IMG/VR virus record: IMGVR_UViG_2595698952_000001
Location: 160,001-224,000 of that record
Strand: one strand, 5' to 3'
Source of the DNA: a virus
Taxonomy: Duplodnaviria > Caudoviricetes
DNA length: 64,000 nt
Positions 7,101 through 47,518 of this stretch are shown here, piece after piece. Position numbers and translations under genes: made by a program. Each line of letters begins with the position of its first letter. The stretch's first letter is position 1. A model generated the notes under the pieces. The model was not told the DNA's origin and did not search any database. It worked only from the letters and a program-made list of their open reading frames with translations.

Positions 7101-7174
7101 AATTTAGCCTGCAAGTTCAGTTCTATCCAAAAGCCAATCTGTCCACTACGGACGCTGCTGATTTGGAGAACACC

Positions 7175-7429
7175 ATGAACTTGTATTTGTTAGAAAGACT
7201 AGACCGTGTGGATTACGACGAGTTTGATTCCATAGTCGTGGCTGCCCCTAACCGGGGTGCCGCGCGCGCAACACGTCCCAGATACGGTCATTGGGCTGGC
7301 TCTTGCTATTGTGACGACGATGTACCGTGTACTTGTGGCTGCGATGACGGCGTACGCCTGAGCGTCACTTGTATCGGTCGTACTGACTTACCGGCAGGAG
7401 TTATCCACGAGTCGTTCTGTGCAGGCTGA
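7175..7429 (+). CDS. Small Cys-rich hypothetical protein
   Basis: GGAG RBS; CYC...CTCGC cluster. Confidence 0.7.
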   Translation: MNLYLLERLDRVDYDEFDSIVVAAPNRGAARATRPRYGHWAGSCYCDDDVPCTCGCDDGVRLSVTCIGRTDLPAGVIHESFCAG

Positions 7430-7534: not shown

Positions 7535-7569
7535 ATTTTTTTCTGAATTCCTGTAGGAACTCAAATCGG

Positions 7570-7737
7570 ATGAAAGCCAAACTTCGTAATTTTGCGTTGC
7601 TGGTTTTCCTGGTGTTGGCCGTATTGTTCTACCTGGCTAAGAATTTTGTGATGCTCGCCGTTGACGTCGCAATAATTCTGATGGTCTTGTGGGTGCTACG
7701 GTCACTCGCTAAACGGGCTTTCCGTCGGAAGGCTTAG
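7570..7737 (+). CDS. 55-aa membrane protein (below the ORF-track length cutoff)
   Basis: MKAKLRNFALLVFLVLAVLFYLAKNFVMLAVDVAIILMVLWVLRSLAKRAFRRKA: two hydrophobic helices with basic ends; AGGA RBS. Confidence 0.7.
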   Translation: MKAKLRNFALLVFLVLAVLFYLAKNFVMLAVDVAIILMVLWVLRSLAKRAFRRKA

Positions 7738-7800
7738 CGAACAGCGGAAACTCCGCTCTGTTGTATCAAACCCTGATATTCACCAGTAGGATAATAAAAC

Positions 7801-8631
7801 ATGAAAAAGCTTTTGGTAGGTTTGTTGGCAATCCTGGCGTTCTCCGCTCACGCTACTGATGTTACCATTACGACGGGCCAGCAAGGTCTGACGTACAACG
7901 CCACGTACGGCGTGAATCTTGCCAGTGCTCTGAATGAGTTCGGCAACAAGTCCACTGTGGTACCGTCGAAAGGTTCCCTGGACAACCTGGACAAAGTTGC
8001 TGCCGGTTCTGCGCAGATTGGTTTTACCCAGGCAGACGCTTTCCAGTTCTGGCGCTCACAGCATCCGAACGAAGCACAGAACGTAGACATCGTTGGCCAG
8101 CTGGGTGACGAGTGTGTCTTCGTGGCTGTCAAGAAAGAAGGTAAGGTTGGCGGTGAAGCCGATCTGAAAGAAGGCATTAAGATTGCGGTCGGTGAACCCG
8201 ACTCTGGTTCTTACGCCAGTTGGCAATACCTGCAAGGTTTGGTGAAGCAATACGCAAAAGCTGAAACCTACGCGAAAGGCGGTATCCGTTCTCTGTCCAA
8301 AGTGGCCACGGGTGAATACGACGCGTTCATGTGGGTAAGCGCACCGGGCAAGAATAACAAATTCCTCGAAGCAGTTAACCAGGATAGCTCTGGTCTGAAA
8401 CTCATCGACATGAACAACTGGAACGTCAACGATAAACTGCCTAACGGGCAAGCAGTCTACGAGAAGAAGTCTGCTAAAGTTGATAACTCTGCGTGGTTCG
8501 GTGGTGATGTGAAAGTGCCGTGCACCAAAACGTTGGTGGTTGCTAATACCGACGCCGGTGACGAACTGCTGGAAGCCGTTTCTACTATCCTCCTCAAGAA
8601 TGCTCCACGCATCATGGGGACGGGTAAGTAA
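7801..8631 (+). CDS. TAXI-family (TRAP) periplasmic solute-binding protein
   Basis: Signal peptide MKKLLVGLLAILAFSAHA; motifs ITTG..GLTY, SKGSLDNL, IGFTQAD, IAVGEPDSGS. Confidence 0.8.
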   Translation: MKKLLVGLLAILAFSAHATDVTITTGQQGLTYNATYGVNLASALNEFGNKSTVVPSKGSLDNLDKVAAGSAQIGFTQADAFQFWRSQHPNEAQNVDIVGQLGDECVFVAVKKEGKVGGEADLKEGIKIAVGEPDSGSYASWQYLQGLVKQYAKAETYAKGGIRSLSKVATGEYDAFMWVSAPGKNNKFLEAVNQDSSGLKLIDMNNWNVNDKLPNGQAVYEKKSAKVDNSAWFGGDVKVPCTKTLVVANTDAGDELLEAVSTILLKNAPRIMGTGK

Positions 8632-9216
8632 GTGCTGACGTGTAAAGGGCACTGGCTGGGCTGATAACCCCGCCGGGACGGTTTCATCTGAGGGGTTGGG
8701 TGAAGTGAAGAAACGTGGCACACCAATAAGTCCACGTTAACCGGATTGCATAAAGCACTACCTGCGGGTAGGCAATCCTGCCGTCTAACATTATTCGGTG
8801 ATTAAACATGGAAGAGTTGTTCAGAGCGTTTCTGTACCGAATGGGTACCTGGTTGAAAGACCTCAAGCTCTGGAAGCTCGATTGCTATTGGTTATCAGGA
8901 TGTGGGACTGAACGCCATAAACCTGTTTTAGGACGAGAGTCCTCAACCCAGGCGAAGTCCGTTACGGACGAAGGTCAAGCACCGGCCCATTAAGCCGACT
9001 CGCTGACATAGGCAACCTTCACCCCACAATCTGAATGTAACTGATGGGATTGAGTTCCCAGTGTGAAAGAGTAGCAGTGTGCTACTGAGTTCCTCCCTGG
9101 GACTGCTGAGCAGCGAGGGAATAGGGCCAAGAAGAAAGTAAGTAGGGTTGGTGCTTGGAGGCGCTAAGACCGGGGGATACCCTGGCTCAGAAGAAGAAGT
9201 CCATCAACCTCACTTA
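8632..9216 (+). ncRNA. ~585-nt large ornate ncRNA, ROOL-like candidate
   Basis: Long-range helix GGGTGAAG(8698)/CTTCACCC(9017); two adjacent pseudoknot pairings; many hairpins; abuts a tRNA. Confidence 0.6.
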
Positions 9217-9218
9217 AT

Positions 9219-9294
9219 GCGAGTATAGCTCAGCTGGTAGAGCTTCTGGTTCCCAACCAGACGGTCGTGAGTTCGAATCTCATTGCTCGCTCCA
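9219..9294 (+). tRNA. trnG: tRNA-Gly(CCC)
   Basis: TCTGG-TT CCC AA-CCAGA; acceptor GCGAGTA/TGCTCGC; TCCA end. Confidence 0.92.
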
Positions 9295-9403
9295 ACAAAA
9301 TCAATGACTTATAGCGATTTCCCCATTTCGCTACAAGACAACCTAAGTATATGTAAAACAACCAAGACGTGTGCGAATTCGAAGTTGAGTTCTCAGACGT
9401 ATT

Positions 9404-10061: not shown

Positions 10062-10151
10062 GGAGAATTGTCCGAGAGGCTTAAAGAGCTCCCCTGCTAA
10101 GGGAGTGGTGGCGAAAGCTGCCCGTGTGTTCGAATCACACATTCTCCGCCA
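10062..10151 (+). tRNA. trnS: tRNA-Ser(GCT)
   Basis: CTCCC-CT GCT AA-GGGAG, long variable arm, GCCA end. Confidence 0.95.
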
Positions 10152-32229: not shown

Positions 32230-33993
32230 ATGGCAATGAAATTACTGAAACTCGCAATGTATCCGGTTCAAGAAGTACCGGAGCAGATTCGTCGTCGTGT
32301 TGGCTTTAACGCCAGCACGGGTGCACTGGATGACCTCGCTACTGCGGTAGCCGTAGGGGGCACCAAAGCAACTGGTTCATTACAGTACCAGCAGGCGTTG
32401 TCACAAATCGTCGGCTTTGACGATACGAAGGAAGGCTTCGAGCGCCCATTCGTAAACGTCAGCGATAACGATGACAACCCAATCCAATTCCAGTTCGGGT
32501 CTAATGACACGGGTGTGTATAACTTCGTCGCGATTATCGTGGCGCAGCCGTTGGCGGGTACCCGTTCGCAGGAAACGCAGTATGTGGTTTCTGGTTACAC
32601 CTCGCAGGCAGAGAAATCCCTGTTCGGTAAATTGCCAGATGACATGGTGCTGTACATTAACGACATCTACGGTCTGCAATGTACGTACGATGGTGATGGC
32701 CTGGGTGGTCGTCGTATCAACCCAGATTCCTATCGCCTGGTCGATAACTACGTCCTGTCGAAATCACTGTCGCATATGGGCTACAGTGAAAACAGTGTGG
32801 ACATCATCTCGGTGGCGAAATCCGCAGACATGGTGAAACGTATTGAACTGGCGTCGGACGAAGAGTTCATTCCAGATGCCAATACCATGTTGTCGCCGAA
32901 TGCACAACATGCTCCACAGCTGCTGACCGGACAGTTAACCCGTCCAGAAGCGTTCGTCTCGGCTATCTCTAATGCGTACCTGTCAACCGCAGGTATCGAT
33001 ACGGAGCTGGGCCAGGTCGACAGCTTCTTTGCCGGTAACACCAGTATCGGTATCGATTCAGAACTGAGCAACCTGGGTGTGGTGCGTAACTTCAACAATT
33101 ACGAACTCATCAAGGCCATGCGTTCTGCGCTGACCAATGCCACCTCCGATGTAACCGGTGGCTGGAAAGCAACCAACAAAGCCACCTTCCGTCTGGCCGA
33201 TTTACGTGCATGTATTTCGAACCCGCTGGATATGGATGTGTGGATTGGTGAATCGATCCGACTGGCTGAGCAACGTGGCCTGGGCCAAATCGAGCAGACT
33301 GATAGCTGGATTGGCTATAAAGACATGTCCACCCAGGGTTCACTCGTGGCGTATGACCTGGCAATGATGCTGGGTGCAACCATGACGCGTAACCTGCTCG
33401 GTGAAGTGTCGTTCATGTTTGATAACCGTAACTCGGATATCCTGCAAGAACCGAAACTTCAGGTCTTCCCGCACAACGTGGGTTCTCTGACCGATGGCCC
33501 ACTGCCAGATGTAATGGCTCGCCGTTTCCTGAACGACCTGCGTGCGGTGATGGTACAAGTTACCAAGCACAACCGCATCCGCTGTAAAATGGTGGTCACC
33601 TGCTTAGTCGGCACGGTATCTCGTATTGAGATTACTATCGATGGCGACTTAACCGAATGGTACACCTTCGCATCGTTCATGCAGTTCCGTCTGCATAACG
33701 GTAACACAACCGATCTCACCTACGCCGGACGCCTGGCGAAGAATACCGCGCACCTGCTCAAGACCGTTGAAGAAGGTTTCAATGCGTACGAGCGTGACAA
33801 CGGCATCAGCCGCATGAAGTCTAACCTACCAACCGGCTCTACAGGCGGTCTGGGTAGTGATTTAGGCGGACTGAATCCGAACGCGGTACTGGGCGACTCT
33901 TTAGGAGGTGGCCTGGGCGGTGGATTGGGTTCCGATAATCTCACCGGTGGACTCGGTGGTGGTTTGGGCGGTGGTAAGCGCGGCGGACTCTAA
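32230..33993 (+). CDS. picA: PicA/Imp1 nuclear import factor (phiKZ gp69-like)
   Basis: Synteny (after gp68-like, two genes before the beta subunit), size, Gly-rich tail. Confidence 0.65.
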   Translation: MAMKLLKLAMYPVQEVPEQIRRRVGFNASTGALDDLATAVAVGGTKATGSLQYQQALSQIVGFDDTKEGFERPFVNVSDNDDNPIQFQFGSNDTGVYNFVAIIVAQPLAGTRSQETQYVVSGYTSQAEKSLFGKLPDDMVLYINDIYGLQCTYDGDGLGGRRINPDSYRLVDNYVLSKSLSHMGYSENSVDIISVAKSADMVKRIELASDEEFIPDANTMLSPNAQHAPQLLTGQLTRPEAFVSAISNAYLSTAGIDTELGQVDSFFAGNTSIGIDSELSNLGVVRNFNNYELIKAMRSALTNATSDVTGGWKATNKATFRLADLRACISNPLDMDVWIGESIRLAEQRGLGQIEQTDSWIGYKDMSTQGSLVAYDLAMMLGATMTRNLLGEVSFMFDNRNSDILQEPKLQVFPHNVGSLTDGPLPDVMARRFLNDLRAVMVQVTKHNRIRCKMVVTCLVGTVSRIEITIDGDLTEWYTFASFMQFRLHNGNTTDLTYAGRLAKNTAHLLKTVEEGFNAYERDNGISRMKSNLPTGSTGGLGSDLGGLNPNAVLGDSLGGGLGGGLGSDNLTGGLGGGLGGGKRGGL

Positions 33994-46224: not shown

Positions 46225-47518
46225 ATACCTGGTCGCAGCCTGTCACGCAGAAGCGTGGCGTCGACTGGTATGGCGTATTGCGGTGTTTAACGTGGCCATC
46301 TTTAATGAGGATGGGGAACCGCCTGAACCGTACGACCTGACTTACATTGACGGCCTGCCGCATTTCTGGGATGTGCCGGTCGAAGATGAAGATGCGAAGT
46401 GGGTGCCGATTGAAGGGTGTAAAAAGGATGACGAACTGTTCATCCCGGAAGAACTCTTTGAGTTGCGTCCTGATATGTATCCCGGCTTAGAAGGCCCGGT
46501 GCAAACCTCCGTAGGGCGTTACGTCTTTAACTGGATTGTTATCTTCTACGCGTTCGGTACTCGCCTGCCGTACCAGGCGATTTCCAAGAACCCGCTGGAA
46601 TACCAGAAAGAGATGTACCGCCGTTGTCTGGAACACGAAGACGATGAGCCAGAGAATGACGGGGCCATTCGTCCAAGCATGATAGGGCGCTTTGTAGGCG
46701 GTCTACACGAGCTTGCACCGATGACCCGTGGCATTGCCGCCACCGGCACGTTGCGTTCGCTGACGACCCACCCAGACGCGTATAAGGTACGTGACGCATT
46801 ACTGCTTAAGCACAAAGACGAGCTGGATAACCCGGCCGTCATCGTGATGATTGAAAAGGCATTGGATGAACTGGATAAGGAATGGTTGAGCGGTGACCAG
46901 TCTATCGAGTTCTACAATTCGCCGAAATCCCGAATGCGTCGTCGTAAACTGATGTTGATGTACGGTATTCAAACCGCATTTAAAGAGGGGAGTGACTTTA
47001 CCCTGGTGCCAACCAGCCTGATGGAAGTTGATGAAGGCGGGATGAAGAACCTGGTAGAGAAATTCAACGACACCCGTGAAGGGTCGTTCTCGCGTGGTGC
47101 GGAAACCGCGAAGGGGGGTGAGCAGGTACGTATCATTCAGATGATCTTCCAGAACCACCGTATCGTGGCCGGGGATTGTGGTACCAAGCTGACCCATCCG
47201 GTGGTCATTAACCTCGGCAACGTCACCCGTTATATCGGGATGAACGCCGTTGTAAACGGCAAACTGGTACAGCTGACTGAGGCGTATTTGAAAGAACAGC
47301 TGGGCAAAGTTGTCCGTCTGCGACGCCCCATCTTATGTCAACTGGGTCACGTAGACTGCTGTGCTGCGTGCTCCTCGGCCCACAAAGCCGAAGAACCGCG
47401 TGCAATCGCCGCGGACATCTCCTCTGCGTTCTCCAACGTTATGACCAATGCGATGGGCGCAATGCACGGCCGTGAAACCGTCGTGCAGGAATTCGTACCG
47501 TTAATCCACATTACTTAA
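46211..47518 (+). CDS. Virion RNA polymerase beta'-like subunit (phiKZ gp80-like)
   Basis: GSFSRGAETAKGG, DCGT, LRRPILC, CCAAC, MGAMHG. Confidence 0.88.
   Translation: MNRIEYLVAACHAEAWRRLVWRIAVFNVAIFNEDGEPPEPYDLTYIDGLPHFWDVPVEDEDAKWVPIEGCKKDDELFIPEELFELRPDMYPGLEGPVQTSVGRYVFNWIVIFYAFGTRLPYQAISKNPLEYQKEMYRRCLEHEDDEPENDGAIRPSMIGRFVGGLHELAPMTRGIAATGTLRSLTTHPDAYKVRDALLLKHKDELDNPAVIVMIEKALDELDKEWLSGDQSIEFYNSPKSRMRRRKLMLMYGIQTAFKEGSDFTLVPTSLMEVDEGGMKNLVEKFNDTREGSFSRGAETAKGGEQVRIIQMIFQNHRIVAGDCGTKLTHPVVINLGNVTRYIGMNAVVNGKLVQLTEAYLKEQLGKVVRLRRPILCQLGHVDCCAACSSAHKAEEPRAIAADISSAFSNVMTNAMGAMHGRETVVQEFVPLIHIT

What the first reader, a model, noticed from the sequence alone, without database searches (positions are those of the whole stretch)
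8632..9216. ROOL-like giant ncRNA directly upstream of a tRNA in a nucleus-forming phage
Seen: ~585 nt with no credible coding gene. A long-range helix joins GGGTGAAG (8698-8705) to CTTCACCC (9017-9024). Two hairpin loops, CTGATA (8661) and ACCAAT (8722), are complementary to adjacent halves of ATTGGT-TATCAG (8887-8898), giving a double pseudoknot. The 3' domain is closed by GGGTTGGTG/CATCAACCT (9145/9202). Known: ROOL and GOLLD RNAs are large, tRNA-adjacent, phage-associated and form multimeric cages; ROOL is ~580 nt and mostly reported outside Proteobacteria. The ROOL assignment is from recollection of size, context and motifs, not from a search.
Basis: partly seen in the sequence, partly recalled or inferred. 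Interest (0 to 1): 0.85.

Follow-up and report, generated by a model that had tools for sequence, protein, structure and literature searches.

The report
Structured jumbo-phage RNA with embedded small gene
The stretch is not a ROOL RNA but an apparently undescribed, strongly structured phage RNA about 565 bases long that also carries a conserved small gene, and its front domain recurs in distantly related nucleus-forming jumbo phages.

Summary
Window 8632-9218 (+) lies between a TAXI-like gene and tRNA-Gly, in a 243-kb jumbo phage close to Erwinia phage Asesino.

**The ROOL label fails.** Rfam 15 gives only tRNAs here. The ROOL model's best score in the whole genome is 9.4 bits (cut-off 99.1), at another place. 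GOLLD gives nothing.

**The RNA structure is real.** On 14 diverged homologues from four or more genera, compensatory changes support:
- a 5' domain (84% of cells paired against 40-51% in slid controls; 20 of 33 pairs changed on both sides);
- a central domain;
- a 3' hairpin domain.

- The 3' closing helix is confirmed.
- The long-range helix is not conserved, and a perfect 8-base match is expected by chance.
- Pseudoknot 1 has no covariation.
- Pseudoknot 2 has one covarying pair.

**"No credible coding gene" is wrong.** A 55-69-codon frame (window 8808-8993) is open in all 20 full-length loci examined. It shows in-frame indels and codon periodicity.

**The 5' domain is more widespread.** Its covariance model also hits Erwinia phage RAY and two uncultivated jumbo phages at 74-82 bits. 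There it has neither the small gene nor the 3' domain.

**Best reading:** a new modular RNA that is both structured and coding, probably processed together with the tRNA array. Its function is unknown.

The parts
8652..8676 (+). P1 hairpin: stem 8652-8660 with 8668-8676, conserved 7-nt loop 8661-8667 (YYGRUNN).
   Evidence: helix 1: 6 of 9 pairs changed on both sides, 84% of cells paired. Kept in 4 sequences that were not used to build the model (5 of 9 pairs changed on both sides, 94% paired).
8677..8785 (+). 5' junction domain. It is closed by P2 (8677-8681 with 8781-8785). It holds an optional hairpin P2a (about 8684-8705), P2b (8713-8718 with 8732-8737, conserved 13-nt loop), P2c (8742-8749 with 8772-8780, conserved 8-nt bulge 8750-8757) and P2d (8758-8762 with 8767-8771).
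   Evidence: 33 pairs, 84.2% paired against 40-51% in slid controls, 20 pairs changed on both sides against 5-8. P2 shows 5 of 5 pairs changed on both sides in RAY, G019, G010 and L047. Single-sequence folds give the same overall architecture.
8786..8869 (+). Weakly structured linker. It holds a conserved AUUCGRU-type motif, a Shine-Dalgarno-like GGTGAT (8797-8802), the start codon 8808-8810 and about the first 20 codons of the small frame.
   Evidence: Read. The small hairpin around GGTGAT is weak and inconsistent across homologues.
8808..8993 (+). Small frame of 61 codons plus stop. The stop TAA (8991-8993) lies in the loop of hairpin 8983-8986 with 8994-8997.
   Evidence: Open in all 20 full-length loci examined, with in-frame indels. 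Differences by codon position in 6 independent pairs: 51, 26, 67. pN/pS is 0.33-0.50 in frame 0, against 0.8-0.9 and 1.4-3.3 in the shifted frames, for the Wellington-type pairs. AlphaFold2 gives a helix at residues 2-30 with pLDDT 74-85 and a low-confidence tail.
8870..9061 (+). Central domain. It is closed by long-range helix P5 (8870-8873 with 9058-9061; 8876-8879 with 9052-9055). It holds hairpins 8930-8943 and 8957-8969, the three-part helix P8 (8971-8975 with 9015-9019; 8978-8980 with 9002-9004; 8983-8986 with 8994-8997) and an invariant hairpin 9028-9034 with 9045-9051.
   Evidence: 34 pairs, 95.6% paired against 29-50% in slid controls, 9 pairs changed on both sides against 0-3. P5 appears in 12 of 14 single-sequence folds.
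9071..9090 (+). P9 hairpin.
   Evidence: helices 1-2: 3 of 5 pairs changed on both sides, 100% paired.
9091..9139 (+). Variable sub-domain followed by a purine-rich linker. The sub-domain occurs in two exchangeable forms.
   Evidence: Alignment: the window shares its form with the Kwan type, while its nearest relative Asesino shares the other form with SPN3US.
9140..9215 (+). 3' domain: a long irregular hairpin (9140-9156 with 9197-9215; 9164-9175 with 9180-9190) with a conserved purine-rich internal loop.
   Evidence: helix 3 has 7 of 16 pairs changed on both sides, helix 4 has 4 of 10. It is 92-97% identical to Machinavirus, where blastn aligns nothing else of the element. This stretch is model R1.
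9219..9294 (+). tRNA-Gly(ccc), the first gene of a ten-tRNA array. It is context, and the probable site where the element's 3' end is made.

Best explanation
The interval is one member of a family of large, modular, structured RNAs of jumbo phages of Enterobacterales. The family is absent from Rfam 15 and I found it in no paper.

Architecture on the + strand:
- a 5' domain: the P1 hairpin plus a three- or four-way junction;
- a loosely structured linker;
- a central domain closed by a long-range helix;
- a hairpin;
- an exchangeable sub-domain;
- a highly conserved 3' hairpin domain that ends a few bases before tRNA-Gly.

A small gene of 55-69 codons starts in the linker. It runs through two thirds of the central domain and stops in a conserved hairpin loop. 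The RNA is therefore most likely both a message and a structured RNA.

Shown here:
- the structure, by compensatory changes;
- the transcribed strand, by conserved G-U pairs;
- the frame's coding signature;
- the absence of any ROOL or GOLLD relationship;
- the independent occurrence of the 5' domain in distant nucleus-forming phages.

Inferred, not shown:
- The RNA is transcribed with the tRNA array and its 3' end is released by RNase P cutting at the 5' end of tRNA-Gly.
- The folded central domain and translation of the frame exclude each other, so folding gates production of the small protein, or translation remodels the RNA.
- The conserved 5' and 3' domains act as binding platforms for a protein or another RNA during host take-over.

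The biochemical function itself is unknown.
For: **Structure**
- (5' domain): 33 pairs, 84.2% of cells paired against 40-51% in slid controls; 20 pairs changed on both sides against 5-8; 0 of 500 shuffles reach the observed score.
- (central domain): 95.6% paired against 29-50%; 9 pairs changed on both sides against 0-3.
- (3' region): 95.1% paired against 34-45%; 14 pairs changed on both sides against 1-4.
- (four sequences not used to build the model): 92.1% paired against 33-49%; 18 of 33 pairs changed on both sides.

**Strand**
- G-U pairs are kept on the + strand: A2 columns 98/153 in 13 of 14 sequences and A3 columns 171/186 in 14 of 14. On the other strand these would be A-C mismatches.

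**Conservation**
- blastn finds 49, 58 and 47 phage records, all Salmonella, Erwinia, E. coli or Proteus jumbo phages.
- The 3' domain is 92-97% identical across genera whose frame region blastn cannot align.

**Frame**
- open in 20 of 20 full-length loci.
- differences by codon position are N-terminal half 27/14/37 (p 0.006) and C-terminal half 24/12/30 (p 0.022).
- pN/pS favours frame 0.
- a profile search of 1.84 billion proteins finds only 4 small proteins of the same clade plus one spurious repeat protein.
- N-terminal helix.

**Not ROOL or GOLLD**
-.

**5' domain elsewhere**
- RAY 74 bits, G019 81.6 bits, G010 80.7 bits. None of them has an R1 match or the small frame.

**Presence in RNA libraries**
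- Contigs of runs recorded as RNA cover 8936-9213 (X3, a whole 278-nt contig) and 8980-9083 (X11).
- This shows presence only. It does not prove transcription.
Against: - No transcript ends, abundance or translation were measured. One search used assembled contigs, which cannot show starts, ends or strand, and DNA may be present in those libraries.
- Ribosome-binding sequences before the frame are weak in several lineages, compared with the AGGAG-type sites of neighbouring genes.
- Hairpins inside the frame keep pairing through changes that alter the amino acids. One example is 8957-8969 in the window against Asesino.
- The C-terminal two fifths of the protein are predicted with pLDDT below 50.
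- The pN/pS ratios are only moderately low (0.3-0.8) and approach 1 between genera.
- In RAY, G019 and G010 the 5' domain exists without the frame, so the frame is not needed for whatever the 5' domain does.
- In several relatives the element is not directly next to a tRNA. In Machina a ParB-like gene follows it, and in SPN3US about 200 nt intervene. RNase P release therefore cannot be general.
- The alignments hold only 14 + 4 distinct sequences, and no R-scape test was run.
Confidence: 0.6

Rival explanations
1. A pure non-coding RNA. The open frame would be a by-product of sequence constraint and is not translated, or is translated without function.
For: - Covarying hairpins lie inside the frame.
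- Start-site signals are weak in several lineages.
- The tail of the predicted protein is low-confidence, with pLDDT below 50 at residues 37-40 and 42-57.
- No Pfam family matches, and the only PHROG match has E 0.025. The atlas search is uninformative.
- The 5' domain occurs without the frame in RAY, G019 and G010.
Against: - The frame is open in 20 of 20 loci, although its first third is too diverged for blastn to align.
- Indels are multiples of three.
- Differences by codon position are 51/26/67. My own chi-square on these totals is about 17.8 with 2 degrees of freedom, p about 1e-4.
- pN/pS is lowest in frame 0.
- An amphipathic N-terminal helix is kept at the protein level.
Confidence: 0.17
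2. An ordinary message for a small protein. Its structured untranslated regions would serve only stability or translational control in cis.
For: - The frame is conserved.
- The 5' domain lies directly upstream of the start codon.
- A stable 3' hairpin would protect the message from exonucleases in a region of heavy tRNA processing. This last point is inference.
Against: - The 5' domain is conserved at 74-82 bits in phages where no homologous frame follows it.
- The 3' domain is far more conserved in sequence (92-97%) than the protein's N-terminal half, which is unusual for a simple stabiliser.
- Two thirds of the coding part is itself locked in covarying helices.
Confidence: 0.15
3. A functional analogue of ROOL or GOLLD: a self-assembling RNA-only multimer or cage, without being a family member.
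For: - The size (565-587 nt), phage origin and tRNA adjacency match the description of ROOL and GOLLD (passages of PMC5737381 read).
- Conserved hairpin loops exist that could make loop-loop contacts.
Against: - No model match.
- Only two multistem junctions are supported and no pseudoknot is supported by covariation. ROOL is described with six junctions and three pseudoknots.
- A conserved frame runs through the RNA.
- No test of oligomerisation is possible with these tools.
Confidence: 0.05
4. A DNA-level element, such as a replication origin, a packaging site or a cluster of protein-binding sites, rather than an RNA.
For: - It lies within the first few kilobases of many deposited genomes. 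Those start points are conventions.
- MFE z-scores are similar on both strands, -3.08 and -2.91.
Against: - Compensatory changes keep the pairing while the sequence changes.
- Conserved G-U pairs are strand-specific.
- The element has the same orientation as the flanking tRNA genes in all loci looked at.
Confidence: 0.03

Closest known systems
ROOL RNA (Rfam RF03087)
   Same: About 580 nt. Phage-associated. Often beside tRNA genes. Several domains with many covarying helices. Function unknown.
   Different: - No covariance-model match. The best score in the whole genome is 9.4 bits against a cut-off of 99.1, and it lies elsewhere.
[quoted passage not shown] Here two junctions and no pseudoknot are supported.
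- This element carries a conserved small frame.
- It is found only in jumbo phages of Enterobacterales.
GOLLD RNA (Rfam RF02032)
   Same: A large structured RNA found near tRNAs and in phages (passage of PMC5737381).
   Different: No match at E<=10 anywhere in the genome. Different size and architecture.
Dual-function RNAs that are both regulators and messages, such as Staphylococcus RNAIII or E. coli SgrS (recalled, from no call)
   Same: A structured RNA of several hundred bases that also encodes a small protein.
   Different: Those RNAs act by base pairing with known target messages. No target, no partner and no expression data are known here. Here the coding part is itself woven into covarying helices.
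Stable RNAs encoded within the phage T4 tRNA gene cluster (species 1 and 2; recalled, from no call)
   Same: Phage RNAs of unknown function that are co-located and co-oriented with a tRNA array and released by tRNA-processing enzymes.
   Different: The T4 RNAs are much smaller. No sequence or structure relationship was tested.
YrlA / bacterial Y RNA (Rfam RF02553)
   Same: In RAY and G019 a YrlA-like tRNA-mimic module (44.5 and 43.7 bits, below the cut-off of 69) lies about 575 nt upstream of the shared 5' domain.
   Different: The element itself gives no YrlA match. No such module was found in the window at the gathering threshold.

Membership tests
ROOL (RF03087) | Match to the family's covariance model at or above the gathering score (99.1 bits) | tested here: not met
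   Searches give no match at E<=10 at the locus. One search gives none in 8 homologous loci. One search, over the whole genome, gives a best score of 9.4 bits (E 3.1) at 32,983-33,032 of the genome, outside the window.
ROOL (RF03087) | Length near 581 nt | tested here: met
   The element spans about 8652-9215 (564 nt). Homologues are 517-582 nt.
ROOL (RF03087) | [quoted passage not shown] | tested here: not met
   Two multistem junctions are supported, one in the 5' domain and one in the central domain. The two proposed pseudoknots have 0 of 6 and 1 of 6 pairs changed on both sides.
ROOL (RF03087) | Location near tRNA genes and in phages or prophages | tested here: met
   In the window the element ends 3 nt before tRNA-Gly. 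tRNA genes lie nearby in 8 of 8 annotated relatives. This does not hold for the RAY-type loci.
ROOL (RF03087) | RNA-only homo-oligomeric cage (abstract of 10.1101/2024.12.08.627333) | not testable with these tools
   No tool predicts RNA oligomers.
GOLLD (RF02032) | Match to the family's covariance model (gathering score 150 bits) | tested here: not met
   no match at E<=10 in the whole genome. Searches likewise.
Dual-function (coding and structured) RNA | Conserved reading frame with a coding signature | tested here: met
   (open in 20 of 20 loci). (codon periodicity). (pN/pS).
Dual-function (coding and structured) RNA | Conserved secondary structure supported by covariation | tested here: met
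Dual-function (coding and structured) RNA | The protein is made, and the RNA has an activity separate from coding | not testable with these tools
   The only indirect hint is that the 5' domain occurs without the frame in RAY, G019 and G010.
YrlA / Y RNA (RF02553) | Match to the family's covariance model | tested here: not met
   There is no match within the element. Only sub-threshold matches exist, upstream of the 5' domain in RAY and G019.

The most novel reading that the evidence does not exclude
The 5' domain would be an old, self-standing RNA module of nucleus-forming jumbo phages. It consists of the P1 hairpin plus a three- or four-way junction with invariant loops. It is kept at 74-96 bits between phages whose RNA polymerase beta subunits share only about 22% identity. 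It would bind a specific ligand, protein or RNA. The whole element would then be a new class of ornate phage RNA that couples this sensor or scaffold to different downstream cargoes: a small gene plus a 3' domain in SPN3US-like phages, and a gene-poor stretch of over 1 kb near a Y-RNA-like tRNA mimic in RAY-like phages. A possible role is in RNA processing, export or translation control in a virus that separates transcription from translation.
Probability: 0.25. Interest if true: 0.85.

Novelty: new variant of a known kind. Interest (0 to 1): 0.68.

Why it matters
- Large structured RNAs with dense covariation are rare in bacteria and phages, and they have repeatedly led to new biochemistry.
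- This one is absent from Rfam 15. It is present in about 60 sequenced jumbo phages of Salmonella, Erwinia, E. coli and Proteus.
- It has a front domain shared with distant nucleus-forming phages.
- Its coding and folding constraints overlap, which makes it a natural test case for how one RNA serves both purposes.
- The hosts and several of the phages (SPN3US, Asesino, RAY) are laboratory systems, so expression, structure, partners and knock-down phenotypes can be tested directly.

Tried and rejected
- **Rfam at permissive thresholds**. Within the element the only hit is a 14-bit mir-278 match on the minus strand (E 4.1), which I take as chance.
- **Pfam, PHROGs and the protein atlas for the small protein**. 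Nothing usable came back (phrog_26199 at E 0.025; atlas score 0.75).
- **A hairpin hiding the Shine-Dalgarno-like GGTGAT.** Folds of 14 homologues give weak and inconsistent structures, -1 to -5.5 kcal/mol. I dropped it as a claim.
- **Extension of helix P5 through 8885-8899 with 9030-9047.** It is good in the window group (9-10 of 10 pairs) but reaches only 2-6 of 10 in Machina- and Seoul-type rows of that alignment. Pseudoknot 2 competes for the same bases. This is left open as possible alternative pairings.
- **TATATG as a promoter word.** There are 12 matches in the window against 15.3 expected, so it is not enriched. I only note that a TATATATG-like word follows the element in several relatives.
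- **Sigma-70 promoter and terminator scan**. Nothing informative, and these phages use their own polymerases.
- **Read laying**. No contig of the four runs lay on 7536-8875. The runs probably hold relatives, and the 5' part is too diverged to be laid at 80% likeness, so this says nothing about the transcript's 5' end.
- **Type I toxin message (hok-like fold-back).** I considered it because a small frame sits inside long-range pairing. I rejected it as a leading idea because the predicted protein is an amphipathic helix with a polar tail, not a membrane peptide, and I saw no sign of an antisense RNA.
- **Hammerhead-like words in RAY.** No Rfam hammerhead match at E<=1.
- **Literature searches** (one search was badly framed and useless). 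No listing describes this element. The supplementary lists of PMC10690425 (8,495 candidate RNAs from IMG/VR) could contain it, and I could not see them.
Full report
**Where it lies.**
- Window 8632-9218 (+) sits between a 276-codon gene (7801-8631) and tRNA-Gly(ccc) at 9219-9294, the first gene of a run of ten tRNA genes.
- The upstream gene matches NMT1_3 (E 9.6e-12) and phrog_6856. Relatives annotate it as a TAXI-type solute receptor.
- The window is part of a 243,050-bp virus record and holds the element once.
- The window also encodes split multisubunit RNA polymerase and DNA polymerase genes typical of phiKZ-like jumbo phages.
- The nearest named relative is Erwinia phage Asesino. It is 87.7% identical over 99% of the interval and 93% identical in the RNA polymerase beta subunit.
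- Asesino is published as nucleus-forming (PMC11724907; I saw only the title and abstract, in the listing).

**The ROOL label.**
- Rfam 15 at gathering thresholds finds only 11 tRNAs in the whole window.
- At E<=10 on 8400-9400 it finds the tRNA and a 14-bit mir-278 match on the other strand.
- In eight homologous loci, none of 87 matches at E<=10 falls inside the element.
- The ROOL model (RF03087, 574 positions, cut-off 99.1 bits), run over the whole genome, scores at best 9.4 bits, at a place outside the window.
- GOLLD (RF02032) gives nothing at E<=10.
- The element is therefore not a member of either family.

**Relatives.**
- blastn with the window's element, SPN3US's and ChrisDB's finds 49, 58 and 47 phage records.
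- All are jumbo phages of Salmonella, Erwinia, E. coli or Proteus. They belong to Erskinevirus, Wellingtonvirus, Machinavirus and Seoulvirus, plus some with no genus assigned.
- Pattern scans added IMG/VR and metagenome copies.
- I worked with 14 distinct full-length sequences that are 48-89% identical overall, leaving out near-identical rows.
- The element always has the orientation of the neighbouring tRNA genes.

**Structure.**
- Folding each homologue alone gives the same overall plan.
- 5' domain (8652-8785): 33 pairs, 84.2% of cells paired against 40-51% when the partners are slid. 20 pairs changed on both sides against 5-8. The covariation score is 0.495 against at most 0.136, and 0 of 500 shuffles reach it.
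- Central domain (8870-9061): 34 pairs, 95.6% paired against 29-50%. 9 pairs changed on both sides against 0-3.
- 3' region (9071-9215): 31 pairs, 95.1% paired against 34-45%. 14 pairs changed on both sides against 1-4.
- The last two structures came from RNAalifold on the same alignments, which favours them somewhat.
- G-U pairs conserved on the + strand mark it as the functional strand (13 of 14 and 14 of 14 sequences at two positions).
- The 3' hairpin domain is 92-97% identical between genera in which blastn aligns nothing else of the element.
- Kwan-type phages carry a different sequence of the same shape in its place.
- The sub-domain at 9091-9135 occurs in two forms that do not follow phage relatedness.

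- Single complementarities are at chance level. There are four perfect 8-base matches against 2.53 expected, and 259 of 300 shuffles hold at least one.
- 3' closing helix: 98.4% paired, 4 of 9 pairs changed on both sides. It holds.
- Long-range helix 8698-8705 with 9017-9024: 50.9% paired and no pair changed on both sides.
  - It is paired in the window (8/8) and Asesino (7/8) but only 0-4/8 elsewhere.
  - In Asesino the one difference breaks this helix and improves a local hairpin.
  - Its 3' strand is taken by helix 8971-8975 with 9015-9019, which has three covarying pairs.
- Pseudoknot 1 has no covariation, and its two middle pairs fail in 8-9 of 14 sequences.
- Pseudoknot 2 has one covarying pair (A-U 4, G-C 4, G-U 4, other 2). 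It competes with an extension of helix P5 for the same bases. I leave it open.

**The small gene.**
- The frame 8808-8993 (61 codons) has a counterpart of 55-69 codons at the same place in every full-length locus examined: 17 of 17, two more and L047, making 20 of 20.
- It is annotated as a hypothetical protein in Asesino, Machina and ChrisDB.
- Its first third is too diverged for blastn to align, yet it stays open.
- Indels are in frame, and the stop always falls in the loop of hairpin 8983-8997.
- In six phylogenetically separate pairs, differences by codon position are 27/14/37 in the N-terminal half (p 0.006) and 24/12/30 in the C-terminal half (p 0.022).
- pN/pS for the Wellington-type pairs is 0.33-0.50 in frame, against 0.8-0.9 and 1.4-3.3 in the shifted frames. 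Between genera it nears 1.
- A profile search of 1.84 billion proteins finds four small proteins of the same clade and one spurious repeat protein.
- AlphaFold2 with eight sequences gives a helix at residues 2-30 (pLDDT 74-85) and a low-confidence tail. Mean pLDDT is 63.6.
- The confident helix is encoded mainly by the loosely structured linker and the first bases of P5. The low-confidence tail is encoded inside the covarying central domain.
- Points against translation: the start signals are weaker than the AGGAG-type sites of neighbouring genes, and hairpins inside the frame covary at the cost of amino-acid changes.

**A wider module.**
- A covariance model of the 5' domain (R2) hits Erwinia phage RAY (Agricanvirus) at 74 bits.
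- RAY's RNA polymerase beta subunit is only about 22% identical to the window's.
- The RAY hit lies in a 1,268-nt unannotated gap between gp203 and gp204, with no tRNA nearby.
- Twenty IMG/VR jumbo-phage records were chosen by polymerase homology. R2 hits three of them strongly:
  - G006, a further full-length element that also matches the 3' model R1 and keeps the frame;
  - G019 at 81.6 bits;
  - G010 at 80.7 bits.
- Two more records give weak 18.6-bit partial hits, which I did not follow. Fifteen give nothing, and these include the five closest by polymerase (55-76% identity).
- R2 finds nothing at E<=1 in CR5, Derbicus and pVa-21, and only a 12.5-bit, E 0.28 match in STsAS (a 197-kb record), which I take as chance.
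- R2 finds nothing at E<=0.01 in Joad, 2050HW, Eowyn, PCH45 or PhiEaH1.
- E-values from these models are rough. The bit scores are strong.
- The four new sequences were not used to build R2, yet they keep the structure. 92.1% of cells are paired against 33-49%, 18 of 33 pairs changed on both sides, and the closing helix P2 has 5 of 5.
- RAY, G019 and G010 have neither the 3' domain nor a homologue of the small frame.
- RAY and G019 share further conserved sequence downstream, 65% identity over 1,044 aligned columns.

**Expression.**
- The only data are assembled contigs of public runs. Runs recorded as RNA hold contigs on 8936-9213 (X3, a whole 278-nt contig with 5 differences) and 8980-9083 (X11).
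- Two runs of uncertain kind hold 8903-9204 (X1, two contigs) and 8975-9170 (X4).
- This shows presence in such libraries. It does not show transcription, ends or strand.

**Reading.**
- Shown: a real, conserved, modular RNA structure on the + strand. It is unrelated to ROOL and GOLLD and carries a frame with a coding signature. Its 5' domain has a life of its own in other nucleus-forming phages.
- Inferred: co-transcription with the tRNA array, release of the 3' end by RNase P in the window's clade, mutual exclusion of folding and translation, and a role of the conserved 5' and 3' domains as binding platforms.
- The function is unknown.
- In the literature searches listed under Tried and rejected I found no description of the element.

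**Verdict.**
- The ROOL label is rejected.
- The element is best filed as a new family within the known kind 'large structured phage RNAs beside tRNA genes'. It differs in having an embedded small gene and a separately conserved 5' module.

Noticed in passing
L046 1343-1406 (Erwinia phage RAY, KU886224.1 about 167,142-167,205) and L084 813-877: A sub-threshold Rfam match to the tRNA-like part of YrlA, the bacterial Y RNA (44.5 and 43.7 bits, cut-off 69, E 2.7e-7 and 4.7e-7). It lies about 575 nt upstream of the shared 5' domain, between gp202 and gp203 in RAY.
   Followed up: no
L046 2392-2408 and 2507-2540 (RAY), with counterparts in L084: Downstream of the 5' domain, RAY and G019 share a T-arm-like GGTGGTTCAACTCCACC. 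They also share the words CTGATGAG ... CGAAAC, which recall a hammerhead core. No Rfam hammerhead or tRNA match at E<=1, and ARAGORN finds no tRNA.
   Followed up: partly
window 9091-9135; alignment: The sub-domain after hairpin P9 comes in two unrelated forms. The window shares one with Kwan-type phages, while its nearest relative Asesino shares the other with SPN3US. This points to exchange of RNA sub-domains between lineages.
   Followed up: partly
L003, L017, L018 (Kwan / Wellington type); A6 row 'Kwan': In these phages the otherwise nearly invariant 3' domain is replaced by a different sequence that can form a hairpin of similar length.
   Followed up: no
window 7163-7429 (+) and L085 1841-2140: The 88-codon frame between tRNA-Trp and tRNA-Cys begins MENTMNLYLLER.... 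It has a look-alike start (MNLYLVERTD...) in a 99-codon frame about 200 nt downstream of the 5' domain in G010. This suggests loose synteny of the island across distant phages.
   Followed up: no
L084 1786-2304 and L085 896-1477: A P-loop (GPRQ[ST]GK[ST]) protein gene of 172-193 codons lies just downstream of the 5' domain in G019 and just upstream of it in G010. It is absent at that place in RAY, as if it were a mobile insertion.
   Followed up: no
window 10062-10151: ARAGORN calls a tRNA-Ser(gct) that Rfam's tRNA model does not list at the gathering score: 12 genes against 11.
   Followed up: no
window 7801-8631: The phage encodes a TAXI/NMT1-like periplasmic solute-binding protein with a signal-peptide-like N-terminus (phrog_6856; PF16868, E 9.6e-12). 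It is present upstream of the element in Erskine-, Wellington- and Machina-type phages but not in SPN3US or ChrisDB.
   Followed up: no
window 9348-9353; L003, L004, L005, L006, L010 just after the element: A TATATATG-like word follows the element or the first tRNA in several relatives and could be a phage promoter. The hexamer TATATG is not enriched in the window as a whole: 12 found against 15.3 expected.
   Followed up: partly
G008 47,460-47,510 and G009 143,557-143,607 (L086, L087): Weak partial matches of the 5'-domain model (18.6 bits, E about 0.006, 51 nt) in two pVa-21-like uncultivated phages.
   Followed up: no
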